From assembly GCA_964016885.1 (NCBI GenBank), contig OZ024743.1:125488001-125552000 (forward strand): 64,000 bases of DNA, written 5' to 3'. Within the stretch, counting starts at the first letter, position 1. Every line of letters begins with the position of its first letter. The position numbers and the translations under genes were made by a program. Positions 26,563-63,178 of the stretch are shown piece after piece. This DNA is from Eledone cirrhosa (Eukaryota). Under the pieces are notes generated by a model. The model made no database searches. It was not told where the DNA came from and saw nothing but the letters and a program-made list of their open reading frames with translations.

Positions 26563-26628
26563 TATTTCATTATATATATTTCAGGGATATCATATTAAAA
26601 ATATGGTATGCCCTCTTCAGACAAAATA
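26563..26628 (-). ncRNA. Hammerhead motif (left arm of inverted repeat 26520-27016)
   Basis: TATTTTGT-CTGAAGA-GGGCATACCATATT..AATATGATATCCCT-GAAA-TATATA-TA-ATGAAATA. Confidence 0.75.
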
Positions 26629-26907
26629 CAATATATAAACAGTTTTATAAATAAATTTGACATACCTTGGAAAATTTACAACTTCCATTTAAAAAGTTGT
26701 TATGGTAGTGAGAATGTTAATGACAGTTAGAAAGAAAGACGGAGAAAAAAGGAAAAAAGAAAAAAAAAAAAAAATATATATATATATATATATATATATA
26801 TATATATATATATATATATATATATATATATATATATATATATATATATATATATTTTTTTTTTTTAAGGGTATGTCAATATTTATTTATAAAACTGATC
26901 TATATTA

Positions 26908-26972
26908 TATTTTATCTGATGAAAGCACACCATAATTTAACTTGGTGTCCTTGAAATATGTATAATGAAATA
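26908..26972 (+). ncRNA. Hammerhead motif (right arm)
   Basis: TATTTTAT-CTGATGA-AAGCACACCA..TGGTGTCCTT-GAAA-TATGTA-TA-ATGAAATA. Confidence 0.75.
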
Positions 26973-27190
26973 AATATGGTTTTATAAATATAGTTTCCAT
27001 TTGTTAATATATCGTATTTTTACTCCAATAATTTGTTGAGTGCTTTATATCAGTTATAAAAATATTTGCTTGTTGTATCCCAACAATTTAAATAGAACTT
27101 CTACATATATATATATATATATATATATATATATATATATATATATATATATAGTAATAATAATAAATTTGAAGACTAAAATCCAAAGAG

Positions 27191-27320
27191 GGCTCGATAA
27201 GGATAAATATATATATCAAATATATAAGAACCGTAGAGCAAATATTTATTAAAATAACAGAAGATCCCGTTAAGGGTGAAAACAGCGATTCTTTGCTTAA
27301 ACTTTAATCTGTTATTTTTA
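27191..27320 (+). mobile_element. Rearranged Helitron family A fragments
   Basis: Matches 1183-1230 and 586-634 in swapped order. Confidence 0.7.
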
Positions 27321-28240
27321 TAAATATATATATATATATATATATATATATATATATATATATATATATATATATATATATATATTTATATAATATATTT
27401 ATATAATATATTTATATATATATATATATATATATTTATATAATATATTTATATATATTTATATAATATATTTATATATATTTATATAATATATTTATAT
27501 ATATTTATATAATATATTTATATATATTTATATATATATAATATATTTATATATATTTATATATATATATATATATATTTATATATATATAATATATTTA
27601 TATATATTTATATATATATATATATATATTTATATATATATATATATATATATATATATATATATATATTTATATATATATATATATATATATATATATA
27701 TATATATATTTATATATATATTTATATATATATATATATATATATATTTATATATATATTTATATATATATATATATATATATATATATATTTATATAAT
27801 ATATATATATATATATATATATATATATTTATATAATATATTTATATATATATATATATATATATTTATATAATATATTTATATATATATATATATATAT
27901 TTATATAATATATTTATATATATATATATATATATTTATATAATATATTTATATATATATATATATATATATATATATATATATATATATATATATATAT
28001 ATATATTTATATATATATATTTATATAATATATTTATATATATATATATATATATATATATATATATTTATATAATATATATATATATATATATTTATAT
28101 AATATATTTATATATATATTTATATATATATTTATATAATATATTTATATATATATATATATATATTTATATAATATATTTATATATATATATATATATA
28201 TATATTATATTTATATAATATATATATATATATATATAAT
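27321..28240. repeat. Complex (TA)n microsatellite
   Basis: Only A/T, with TTT and TAAT interruptions. Confidence 0.95.
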
Positions 28241-28286
28241 ATTAATTCAAACTATTAACAAAAATAGACATTCGTGTGATCAAGTA

Positions 28287-59227: not shown

Positions 59228-59238
59228 TATATAATATA

Positions 59239-60231
59239 CTAGCTGACGTACCCAGCTTCACCCGGGTAAACAGATGATAAGAGAAGACAGGTAAAAGAAA
59301 AAATAACTGTATTGGATGTTTGTCTGGTTACAGTATGAGGCGAGTCCGTGGTGTCTGTGTGATACAAAAAACAGTAAAAAACATATTTCAGATATACCAG
59401 ATTCTTCGTTGTACCATTTGTGCATAGTATATGAACAATTCTAGGTGCTCCCACCTAGAATAGTGACATGCTACGAGATGGTTCATCTTCTGCCTGACTG
59501 TAAAACGTGTATCATTGCATAGACGTAGTTGTTCCACGTTTCTTAAAAGGATGATGGAAGTTCCAATCTTTTATATTATATGTAGATATAGATAATTAAT
59601 ATAAAAGATGTCCGTCATTGTAAAAAAGGTCCCTATTTACTTGAAATGGTTTATACAAATGCCAAATTAATATTAATGCATGTTAATGCTTATCTATAAG
59701 TGGTCAGCTATAATAATAAAACAACAAATTATATGACACAAAAATAAATATAAAAGATGTCCGTCAATGTAAAAAAAGGTCCCTATTTACTCCCTTCACA
59801 ACTCTGTGTATGTTAGACTGACAGACAGGCACACAGACAGATAAACTGCATGGCGATTGTGGAACGCCACACACATACACGCATGGAAACACGCACGCAA
59901 ACTTACGCATAGTTTTTACTTTCTGTGGAATGCTGCACGCACGCACACATAAACATACACGCACGTACATACACATGCACACATGTTAATAGTTATTGCT
60001 TTCCTTCCCCTCTTATTTCCACACACATCACACCTCTCTACACTGCCACATATACATAGTGTATCCAACACAGCGTTCACACTCTCCCCTCTCACTCCAT
60101 CATTGGCGTTATGCATATTAATTTCAGTTTGGCGTCGTTGGGGTGGGCGGAGTCGTTTGAAACCTATGAACCAATGATAATCGAGAATTATGACACACGG
60201 AATACTGACATTCTTGAAATTAATATATAGA
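59239..60231 (-). mobile_element. Helitron deletion derivative with a RepHel helicase C-terminal remnant
   Basis: A|TCTATATATTAAT start; GAPRIVHILCTNGTTKNLVY resembles the SRVG...G.TKNIVY end of Helitron Pif1-like helicases; hairpin CCCGGGTGAAGCTGGG then CTAG|T. Confidence 0.75.
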
Positions 60232-60859
60232 TATATATATATATATATTATGTTGGTACCACAAAACATCCAGCCCACACTGTAGTGGTCATGTAGATGT
60301 CACGACAAAAAGCACCCAGCACACACTGTAAATGTGGTTGGCGTTAGGAAGGGTATCCAGCCATAGAAAACCAGCCAGAAACAGCCCTATATGAGCGAGA
60401 CCCAACTTGCCTCTAATGGGACTAACCCATCTAACCTATGCTAGCATGGAAGATAGATATTAAACGGTGATGATGTTATATATGTATATATTCAATAGTT
60501 CATTTACTTTTAGTTTTTTAATTGTTCACCCAAAAGTAAATTTAGTTAGTTATGTCTTTTTTATTTGAATGTCTAGACAACATAAACTTGATAACTCATG
60601 TTTGTTTGTATGAGTGTGTGTGTGTGTGTGTGTGTATGTGTGTGTGTGTGTGTGTGTGTGTGTGTGTGTGTGTGTGTGTGTGTGTGCATGTGTGCAGGCA
60701 TACACGTAAGATACTGGTAACTCGGATTGTGGCAACTATGTCACCATGGAAAGCAATGTAAAATGATGATGATTATACATACATATGTATATATACACAC
60801 ATCGTCATCTTCATCATCATATATATATATGTCTATATATATATATATATATATATATA

Positions 60860-62943
60860 AATCGATCCAATAGAGGAACCAGCAGTACCAGTTGAAGGTA
60901 GTTTAATAAGTAAGGCAATCAAAGATATGAAGACAGGCAAGGCAGCTGGGCCTTCGGAGATAGTTGCTGATATGCTGAAAGCATCTGGAATGGTGGGACA
61001 CACTATGGTCACCCGGATAGTAAACCTAGTAATACAGAATGGGGTCATACCAAATGACTGGCGTAGCAGCATCATCATTAACTGCTACAAGGGTAAAAGA
61101 GATGCCCTAGACAGGGGAAACTATAGAGGCATTAAATTAGTTGACCAGGTCATGAAGGTCACAGAAAGAGTTATAGCGCAACTAATCAGAGAGCGAATTG
61201 ATATAGATGAAATGCAGTTTGGGTTTGTGTCAGGTAAAAGTACCACGGACGCTCTTTTCCTTGTACGACAACTACAGGAGAATTACCTAGCTAAAAGTAA
61301 ACCCCTCTACTTAGCTTTTGTTGACTTGGAGAAAGCCTTTTGACAGAATCTCCTGCTCCATTATCTGGTGGGTTCTTAGAAAACTAGGTGTTGATGAATA
61401 GTTTGTGAGAGCTATACAAGCCATGTATAAAGAAACAGTCAGCAGGGTTAGAATTAACAATGAATATAGTGAAGAATTTAGCGTAAAAGTTGGTATTCAT
61501 CAAGGCTCTGTCCTTAGCCCCCTCCTATTTATTATTCACCTTCAGGCTATAACAGAGGAGTTCAAGACCGGCTGCCCATGGGAACTTCTATATGCAGATG
61601 ATCTAAGTCTCATAGCTGAATCAATGGCTGAACTAGAGAAGAAATTGCAAACATGGAAGCATGGCCTAGAATCAAATGGCCTTAAAGTTAATTTGTCTAA
61701 GACTAAAGTTTTAGTATGTAGGAAGGAAAATAGGGTACAGGTACCCTATGGGAAATGGCCATGCTCAGTGTGTAGGAAAGGCGTAGGCAGAAATTCCATA
61801 TGTCCCAAATGCAAACTATGGGTACATAAAGGATGTAGTGGGATCACAGGTAAGCTATCTAAGAATATAGATTTTATATGTGGCCGATGCTCAGGTGCAA
61901 TAAGTAGCAAGTGCCCACAGGATACTAGCTCCTTCTATTGCCCAGATGGTTCTATAGAAATAGTGGACACCTTCCGTTACCTGGGTGACAAAATCAGCAG
62001 TGGTGGAGGGTGCTCTGAAAGTACAGTAGCCAGAGTCAGAATGGGATGGAAAGAGTTCAGAGAGCTTATACCACTATTGGCCACTAAAGGTTTCTCCCTA
62101 AAAATGAAAGGCAGATTGTATGATGCCTGTATACGAACAGCAATGTTACATGGCAGTAAGACATGGGCATTGCATGCAGAGGACCTGTGCAGACTGGAAA
62201 GGAACGAAGCATCCATGCTCCATTGGATGTGTAATAGTAATATACGCGAACGGCAAAGCATAAATGAACTAAGTGAGTAATTAGGAATAAGAGGGATCGG
62301 ATGCTGTTTACTCGAAAGAAGACTACGTTGGTATCGTTACGAGATGCGCATGAAAGACGACAGCTGTATAAAAAAGTGCAGGGTGATCAAAATAGATGGA
62401 AGTTACGGAGTAAGTAGACCCAGAAAAACCTGGGACGATTTGATAAATTCCGCCCTTACACACTTACACCTCTCTAGACCGAGAGCTTTGGCGCTATGCA
62501 GTAATACAGAAGACCCGCCTTGCCTATGTACAAAGCGAAACCTACAGTCAGTAGGCACCTCTTAACCAAATATATACCCCATCCCACAGCCCCTACTGCA
62601 CCCCACCCCTTACTCCCACCAACACAACCCTTTCTCTGTAAAGTTATGTTGGTACCACAACATCCAGTCCAAAATAAATGAGGTCGTGTAGGTGTCTCGA
62701 CAAAAAAAACACACAGTCTACGCTGTAATGTGGTCGTGTATGTAACACAGTAAAAACCTCCCAGTCCACACTGTAAACGTGGTTGGTGTTAGGAAGGGCA
62801 TCCAGCCATAAAAAAACCTGCCAGACAGTCCTATACGAGCGAGACATGGTCACCCGACCAATCTTGCCTCAAGTAGGACAATTCCCGACTAAACATATGC
62901 TAGCGTGGAAGATAGACGTTAAACGATGATGATGATGATGATG
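60860..62943 (+). mobile_element. 5'-truncated RTE LINE (same subfamily as 31794-35020), decayed
   Basis: KAAGPS, NYRGIKL, LLYADD, FRYLG; frameshift near 61340; 3'UTR and (GAT)n tail. Confidence 0.95.
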
Positions 62944-63112
62944 GTATATATATATATGTATATATATATGACCAAAGATTAATATGGTTCATTGATTACT
63001 CAATGAATATAGTTTTACAATAGATTAAAAGCACTCTACAAAAAAGTTTTCTGGAGTTATTAATATTATTCAGAATATTAATAAATGAAGACATTCACAT
63101 AATCAAAATATA

Positions 63113-63178
63113 TGTTTTATTATATATATTTCGAAGGTACTGTGCTGGTTTTTCAGTACGTCCTCGTCAGATAAAATA
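63113..63178 (-). ncRNA. Hammerhead motif in element 62968-63390 (paralog of 28238-28612)
   Basis: TATTTTAT-CTGACGA-GGACGTACTG..CAGTACCTTC-GAAA-TATATA-TA-ATAAAACA; 33-bp inverted repeat 63065-63097 / 63356-63388. Confidence 0.8.

What the first reader, a model, noticed from the sequence alone, without database searches (positions are those of the whole stretch)
26563..63178. Stem II covaries around a conserved C-C mismatch
Seen: the first three stem-II pairs are GGG/CCT (26563), AAG/CTT (26908), GGA/TCT (28287), AAA/TTT (53815) and GGA/TTC (63113). Each is followed by C opposite C and then a further helix; the 29611/47821 family has C opposite T. Inference: selection on RNA structure, with the mismatch possibly a tertiary-contact or protein-binding site specific to this HHR class.
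Basis: partly seen in the sequence, partly recalled or inferred. Interest (0 to 1): 0.7.

Follow-up and report, generated by a model that had tools for sequence, protein, structure and literature searches.

The report
Retrotransposon hammerheads keep one fixed cytosine
These are hammerhead-shaped RNA motifs, predicted to cut themselves in pairs, at the ends of a known kind of jumping gene, and across many diverged families one cytosine in the second stem stays fixed and nearly always unpaired while the pairs around it swap, likely because the element's own enzyme reads it.

Summary
Observation confirmed: all cited triplets and the C·C / C·U mismatches are there. The motifs are type I hammerheads with palindromic stem III, in the pseudo-LTRs of Hydra-clade Penelope-like retroelements, with more than 75,000 pattern matches in this 3-Gb genome. 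The conserved item is the 5' cytosine (10.4), not a symmetric C·C. On a tree of 320 copies it decays like its neighbours in single copies (21 changes) but changed on only 2 inherited branches against a mean of 9.1 (Fisher p 0.010). Its partner is C, U or A, and G in one old class of unknown position; its slowdown is not significant. Elements carrying it share 46-66% protein identity and group together (support 92); 0 of 52 outgroup hammerheads have C·C. No invariant RNA partner lies in stem I, so a protein contact is the likeliest reading, untested. Cleavage and expression were not shown. The scan noted this feature before on other DNA of this genome. New variant of a known kind.

The parts
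26563..26628 (-). Type I hammerhead motif, core CUGAAGA, stem II GGG/CCU then C·C (26610 opposite 26586), stem III AUAUAUAU; end of a truncated Penelope-like element next to (TA)n
26908..26972 (+). Hammerhead motif, stem II AAG/CUU then C·C (26926 opposite 26949), stem III AUAUGUAU
28287..28353 (-). Hammerhead motif, stem II GGA/UCU then C·C (28335 opposite 28310)
29645..29715 (-). Hammerhead motif of the C·U family (29697 opposite 29668), stem III AUGCGCAU; left arm of a head-to-head inverted pair
   Evidence: I11, 98% complementary arms 29610-29776 and 29778-29944
29839..29909 (+). Hammerhead motif of the C·U family (29857 opposite 29886); right arm of the same inverted pair
47854..47924 (-). 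Hammerhead motif of the C·U family (47906 opposite 47877); inverted pair with 48069-48139
48069..48139 (+). Hammerhead motif of the C·U family (48087 opposite 48116)
53815..53877 (-). Hammerhead motif, stem II AAA/UUU then C·C (53859 opposite 53838)
63113..63178 (-). Hammerhead motif, core CUGACGA, stem II GGA/UUC then C·C (63160 opposite 63136)
63538..63592 (-).
   Evidence: related copy L209

Best explanation
These are hammerhead motifs in the pseudo-LTRs of one lineage of Hydra-clade Penelope-like retroelements, predicted to cut only as dimers, and the fixed cytosine at stem II position 10.4 is likely a base-specific contact for the element's own reverse transcriptase-endonuclease protein. 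Shown: motif anatomy, link to the element ORF, covariation of the stems, and that changes at C10.4 arise freely in dead copies but almost never found new families. Inferred: the 8-nt palindrome of stem III pairs between two copies; the mismatch leaves the three pairs next to the core weak, so the active fold likely needs help; the protein, binding at the exposed cytosine, would supply that help or use the site to pick its own RNA for target-primed reverse transcription. The window's copies are truncated ends with no ORF and are most likely inert.
For: [quoted passage not shown] C10.4: 13 single-copy changes, 0 inherited, against 182 and 94 in the other 14 stem II columns (258 copies, Fisher p 0.011); with every 8-nt-stem-III class included, 21 and 2 against 240 and 128 (320 copies, p 0.010). 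C to U, the commonest change in dead copies (12 of 15 non-C tips), would keep a mismatch yet founds no family, which points to base identity. Blind searches: C at 10.4 in 29, 28, 30, 28 of 30 loci each (counted). Five carrier lineages are 46-66% identical in protein and group together. Outgroup pair 4 is paired in 49 of 52 and swaps freely. No invariant base outside the core and U16.1 could serve as RNA partner. Precedent: the anole PAc hammerhead cuts only with its element's protein (PMC11167929, passages).
Against: No binding, cleavage or expression data; nothing here shows a protein contact. PAc belongs to another clade, and its ribozyme was not needed for insertion in vitro. The partner base is not significantly constrained, and absence of G there needs only a rare transversion. 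One old class (9 copies) has C10.4-G11.4 paired and another (19 copies) lacks C10.4; no ORF was found beside them, so they may be losses inside the lineage. In blind searches that reach those classes C10.4 falls to 23 and 17 of 30. The clade has support 92, not starred, in a quick tree, and the outgroup comes from one side of the Hydra clade. Copy trees rest on short flanks. C-G is the commonest pair 4 in the outgroup (19 of 52), so C10.4 may be partly inherited. Copy 5' ends do not pile up at the cut site.
Confidence: 0.45

Rival explanations
1. The cytosine makes an RNA tertiary contact, to the backbone or minor groove of stem I, or to a core guanine of the partner ribozyme in the dimer, replacing the loop-loop contact that a long stem II cannot make.
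For: Base identity is constrained. It sits about where loop II starts in canonical hammerheads with 4-bp stem II, whose loop contacts stem I (PMC4209133 main text; PMC3088659 passages).
Against: Stem I has no invariant base in 23 representatives and changes on both sides at all 5 pairs. Folding gives no common partner for C10.4 across 23 medoids.
Confidence: 0.2
2. The mismatch is a brake: it weakens the pairs next to the core so that most transcripts stay uncut and can serve as templates; any mismatch would do.
For: A C-G pair would add 2.1-6.7 kcal/mol to stem II in 23 medoids, and the first three pairs exceed probability 0.5 in only 5 of 23. Genomic copies carry the uncut motif. The partner varies among C, U and A. 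C-G copies are 228 of 58,978 and scattered over families.
Against: It does not explain why U at 10.4, also a mismatch and the easiest mutation, founds no family. Other hammerhead families in the same genome have perfect stems.
Confidence: 0.15
3. Frozen accident: one ancestor lost G11.4, the mismatch is tolerated, and C10.4 has stayed by chance because closing the pair needs a transversion.
For: Most inherited changes in stem II are transitions. C-G is the commonest outgroup pair. The tests have moderate p values (0.01) on uncertain trees, and the site was chosen after it was noticed.
Confidence: 0.12
4. The constraint acts on DNA or on another overlapping signal of the pseudo-LTR, such as a transcription start dinucleotide (C then purine) or a splice-related element, not on the ribozyme.
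For: Position 10.5 is a purine in all 23 clusters. Penelope pseudo-LTRs hold a promoter and an intron (PMC6765202 passages).
Against: Only one base is fixed; 10.5 is paired with 11.5 in 20 of 23 clusters; 5' boundaries of full-length copies vary from -67 to beyond -600 relative to the cut, with no pile-up at this place.
Confidence: 0.08

Closest known systems
Hammerheads of Hydra-clade Penelope-like elements (Craig et al. 2021, PMC8557442 / bioRxiv 10.1101/2021.04.23.441226; passages, section 11, supplement parts 1-2 and a search; includes Hydra-1_Obim)
   Same: Single ORF under 3 kb with DKT and CxCX5C motifs and C-terminal endonuclease, insertion into (TA)n, type I hammerhead near the 3' end, palindromic stem III, frequent U·U at pair 1, inverted 5'-truncated copies.
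   Different: File S2 rows have stem II of 3-8 pairs with no C·C at pair 4 (26 rows, read by eye; often C-G) and stem III mostly ACNN-N-NNGU of 9-10 nt; here stem II is longer, interrupted at pair 4, stem III is an 8-nt palindrome, and the 3' untranslated part is about 1.0-1.3 kb. Hydra-1_Obim carries a different hammerhead.
PLE minimal hammerheads and the palindromic-helix-III variants of Drosophila, mosquito, rotifer and shrimp (Cervera and De la Pena 2014, PMC4209133; main text parts 1-2 of 4, supplement parts 1-2 of 3)
   Same: Type I, long helix II, short palindromic helix III, predicted dimer, many families with compensatory changes, mostly solitary truncated copies, opposite-strand pairs.
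   Different: No extra base between 9 and 10.1 and no conserved G10.1-C11.1 here. A fixed mismatch is not described; D. virilis has a bulge in mid helix II, and single Fig. S3 rows show C·A (S. purpuratus 1) or U·U (C. sinensis 2) at pair 4 without comment.
PAc hammerhead of the anole Poseidon element (PMC11167929; passages and first part of main text)
   Same: Pseudo-LTR hammerhead of a Penelope-like element; genomic copies made from uncut RNA; short tail beyond the motif.
   Different: Other clade; ORF starts inside its stem II, whereas here the ORF starts some 250 bases downstream; its protein dependence was measured, here it is only inferred.
Non-LTR retrozymes of animals (PMC7229834 passages; bioRxiv 10.64898/2026.07.22.740005 parts 1-2 of 5)
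   Same: High-copy type I hammerheads with weak helix III.
   Different: Those are 150-400 bp head-to-tail repeats with canonical loop-loop contacts; these are dispersed ends of coding elements.

Membership tests
Type I hammerhead ribozyme | Core CUGANGA, GAAA, UH | tested here: met
   invariant columns (the core was also the search anchor)
Type I hammerhead ribozyme | Three stems, stem I open | tested here: met
   stem I 94.8%, stem III 98.9% of cells paired, changes on both sides in all three helices; predicts stems I and II unaided
Type I hammerhead ribozyme | Match to an Rfam hammerhead model | tested here: not met
   no match at gathering score; none among the 150 of 178 weak matches listed
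Type I hammerhead ribozyme | Self-cleavage after H17 | not testable with these tools
   no RNA holder listed; needs an assay
PLE dimer-type hammerhead | Short palindromic stem III too weak for a monomer | tested here: met
   8-nt palindromes with compensatory changes, including the central pair that cannot close a hairpin; dimer itself inferred
PLE minimal hammerhead (Cervera 2014 consensus) | Extra base between 9 and 10.1 and conserved G10.1-C11.1 | tested here: not met
   pair 1 is in register and varies: G·U 7, G-C 5, U·U 5, A-U 4, other 2 of 23 clusters
Hydra-clade Penelope-like element | Single RT ORF with C-terminal GIY-YIG endonuclease | tested here: met
   798-aa ORF in L094 with YRDD at 356 and FTYFGST at 690; Pfam gave no significant hit
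Hydra-clade Penelope-like element | DKT motif and CxCX5C linker | tested here: met
   DKT at 122, CNCRIKNKC at 658; compared by eye with Hydra proteins
Hydra-clade Penelope-like element | Insertion into (TA)n; pseudo-LTRs and inverted truncated copies | tested here: met
Hydra-clade Penelope-like element | Placement in a tree with named Hydra, Neptune, Nematis and Penelope proteins | not tested
   trees hold only unnamed relatives and one Argonauta protein
Non-LTR retrozyme | Non-coding head-to-tail repeats each with a hammerhead | tested here: not met
   window copies are solitary or head-to-head; full-length relatives code for a protein

The most novel reading that the evidence does not exclude
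One exposed cytosine in hammerhead stem II is the recognition mark by which this retroelement lineage's telomerase-like reverse transcriptase finds its own RNA and switches on the ribozyme: a natural protein-gated hammerhead whose switch is marked by tens of thousands of genomic copies, giving a single-base handle on why Penelope-like elements keep ribozymes at all.
Probability: 0.3. Interest if true: 0.75.

Novelty: new variant of a known kind. Interest (0 to 1): 0.47.

Why it matters
What hammerheads do in Penelope-like elements is an open question: they cut poorly alone, one needs the element's protein, and whole clades lack them. A single non-core base that is as fixed as the catalytic core across elements only about half identical in protein gives a precise mutant to test, and a young, intact element exists to test it with (L094, L116). 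If the base is a protein contact it would define how a retroelement protein gates a ribozyme. If it is neutral, the finding is an ordinary family of repeat ends.

Tried and rejected
Rfam found no hammerhead. Pfam did not name the ORF. First metagenome scan with one protein found no relative. No RNA holder listed, so expression, splicing and cut ends could not be examined. DNA runs laid on two families list no variant at the two mismatch places, but most stem bases lack variants too and hides 25 rows, so they do not discriminate; organisms B, C, D, E and J hold parts of these families. An upstream GGTAYGTC element, complementary to both strands of stem II, captures C10.4 in folds of 2 of 23 medoids but is absent from the C·U and distant families: rejected as a general cause. 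A shifted register of stem II, or pairing of the 3' strand with the core, fits single families only (inspection). No pile-up of copy ends at the cut site. No ORF was found beside the G3, paired C-G or C-less classes. R-scape was not available; and the tree counts stand in for it. Lunse et al. 2017 on PLE hammerhead variants is not held and may describe such variants. Seven paper searches gave no description of a fixed pair-4 mismatch; one search had 0 hits.
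Full report
Observation. A scan of the window for CUGANGA ... GAAA recovered all five cited motifs with the cited triplets, each followed by C opposite C and a further helix, and four copies with C opposite U. Each has stem I closing the ends (type I), an 8-nt palindrome from A15.1 to U16.1, and A at position 17. Rfam gives no match at gathering score. A tenth, decayed C·C copy of a distant family lies at 63538-63592; four hammerheads of other families in the window lack the mismatch.

What the motifs belong to. The window lies in a 3.0-Gb animal genome, likely an octopus (inference: the only species-named homolog is from Argonauta; Hydra-clade elements are published from Octopus). 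Regions with same-strand pairs of motifs hold an ORF of about 800 residues ending 0.7-1.3 kb upstream of the motif, with DKT, YRDD, CxCX5C and a GIY-YIG-like motif, the marks of the Hydra clade of Penelope-like elements (bioRxiv 10.1101/2021.04.23.441226 section 11). Copies end some 45-55 bases after the predicted cut in (TA)n, a few with a longer tail. The window has no ORF remnant; its copies are truncated ends, two sets as head-to-head pairs.

Genome counts. With anchors blind to stem II there are 58,978 matches (control 10): C·C 32,125, C·U 23,106, C-G 228, not C at 10.4 2,847 (gap range slightly different). The listed C-G and non-C rows are spread over all families, as expected of mutations after insertion. 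Changing the stem I anchor found further families: 16,790 matches (control 151), 2,505 (control 4), 727 (control 0), 1,688 (control 28) and, with longer stem II, 6,560 (control 104). In the first 30 loci of each search C stands at 10.4 in 29, 28, 30, 28, 23 and 17. The last two reach classes without the mismatch.

Covariation. Of 371 motifs with an 8-nt stem III, 57 fetched for a mutated pair 4 were set aside; 314 gave 55 clusters. In the 23 clusters seen at two or more loci, which are not independent of one another, pairs 2-9 are paired in 20-23, pair 1 in 16 (U·U in 5) and pair 4 in none (C·C 18, C·U 4, C·A 1). Pair 3 occurs as G-C, A-U and U-A, pair 2 also as C-G, pair 6 as C-G, U-A and G-C. 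Pairing is 90% in register and 31-46% when slid; same-branch double changes number 13 for true partners against a mean of 6.5, reached by 2 of 1,854 rearrangements. On 23 hand-picked representatives of the mismatch families, 87.5% of cells pair against 67.4% shuffled, 0 of 500 shuffles (related sequences inflate this test), and RNAalifold finds stems I and II with the gap at pair 4 unaided. Stem III keeps its palindrome through two-sided changes, including the central pair, which implies pairing between two molecules (inference; dimers as in PMC4209133).

What is conserved. On a tree built without the stem II columns (258 copies, one per locus and cluster; 7 copies of other classes, short inserts and twins dropped), C10.4 changed on 13 terminal branches, one two-copy branch and no branch of three or more, against means of 13.0 and 6.7 for the other 14 columns (Fisher p 0.011, Poisson 0.001); position 11.4 changed on 13 and 3 (p 0.28). 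Because dropping classes could be circular, I repeated it with every class (320 copies): 21 and 2 for C10.4 against means of 17.1 and 9.1 (p 0.010); both inherited changes concern one long-stem class of 19 copies; 11.4 has 22 and 5 (p 0.09), one of them to G in a class of 9 copies. No ORF was found beside these two classes, so whether they are outgroups or losses is open. Thus the 5' cytosine is constrained in replicating lineages; the mismatch as such is less well shown.

Depth and range. Five carrier lineages with ORFs are 46-66% identical and form one group with support 92 in a quick tree, sister to the Argonauta protein (three of them had 96). Among 77 related elements from metagenome contigs, 45 gave 52 hammerheads; pair 4 is paired in 49, never C·C, most often C-G (19), and stem III is mostly 9-10 nt. 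None of the 26 Hydra-clade rows of Craig et al. File S2 has C·C (by eye). The simplest history is loss of G11.4 in the ancestor of this lineage, after which C10.4 became fixed (inference).

How it likely works. A C-G pair would stabilise stem II by 2.1-6.7 kcal/mol, and the three pairs by the core are likely formed in only 5 of 23 medoids, so the active fold is predicted to be weak. C to U is the commonest change in dead copies and would keep a mismatch, yet founds no family, which argues for a base-specific contact over a mere brake. Outside the core only C10.4 and U16.1 are invariant (C10.4 partly by choice of rows), so stem I offers no fixed partner. The anole PAc hammerhead cuts only with its element's protein, and uncut RNA is its template (PMC11167929); copy ends here also show no pile-up at the cut. 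I therefore put a contact for the element's protein first (0.45), then an RNA contact (0.2), a brake (0.15), accident (0.12) and a DNA-level signal (0.08). None was tested; no RNA run was listed.

Novelty. Hammerheads in Penelope-like elements, in the Hydra clade and in Octopus are known. A fixed cytosine at pair 4 did not turn up in seven searches or in the two published alignments read; U·U at pair 1 is known (PMC3088659; PMC7229834). Lunse et al. 2017 could not be read, and supplements of the bioRxiv preprints were not seen. The scan has noted the same feature in other windows of this genome; these notes are not evidence. Verdict: real, lineage-specific, probably selected, function untested; new variant of a known kind, interest 0.47.

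Noticed in passing
window 47588-47625 (-) and 47708-47745 (+): Head-to-head pair of hammerheads of another family with a perfect 11-bp stem II and the 9-nt stem III typical of published Hydra elements; no mismatch.
   Followed up: partly
window core at 46423 (-) and 55298-55326 (+): Two more hammerhead-like motifs of other families, apparently decayed.
   Followed up: no
L182, L184, L193 and other rows: An amplified subfamily has U·U at pair 1 and A·A at pair 3, leaving one pair before the C·C; a register shifted by two bases could pair instead. It spread with a nearly broken proximal stem II.
   Followed up: no
window 26870-26880, 28370-28380 (-), 63190-63200 (-); L004, L118: A GGTAYGTC element 35-45 bases upstream of the core looks like a 5' splice site (recalled consensus) and is complementary to stem II; in two families the fold prefers it over stem II.
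   Followed up: partly
L382, L384, L388, L393, L395: Old long-stem-II hammerhead class with paired pair 4 and a shared internal sequence block across diverged copies; no ORF found.
   Followed up: partly
L347, L357, L421-L427: Old class with U·U at pair 1, C10.4 paired to G11.4 and a small internal loop just beyond; a natural comparison for the mismatch.
   Followed up: partly
loci (L002, L053, L081, L091, L092, L189, L196): At least seven further hammerhead families with 4-, 6-, 8-, 9- or 10-nt palindromic stem III occur in this genome, none with the mismatch.
   Followed up: no
window 7703-8887, 32220-34881 (-), 60861-62280, 48713-49390 (-): Broken reverse-transcriptase ORFs of non-LTR type; 33086-33848 and 60859-61622 are 93% alike inverted copies.
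   Followed up: no
window 12440, 19315, 22601, 23015, 39377, 39562, 48431, 56211, 57722: Dispersed short repeat family, about 125-200 bp, probably a SINE (D14, D17, D19).
   Followed up: no
window 50182-52956 and 27319-28242: Very long interrupted (TA)n arrays, 2.8 kb and 0.9 kb.
   Followed up: no
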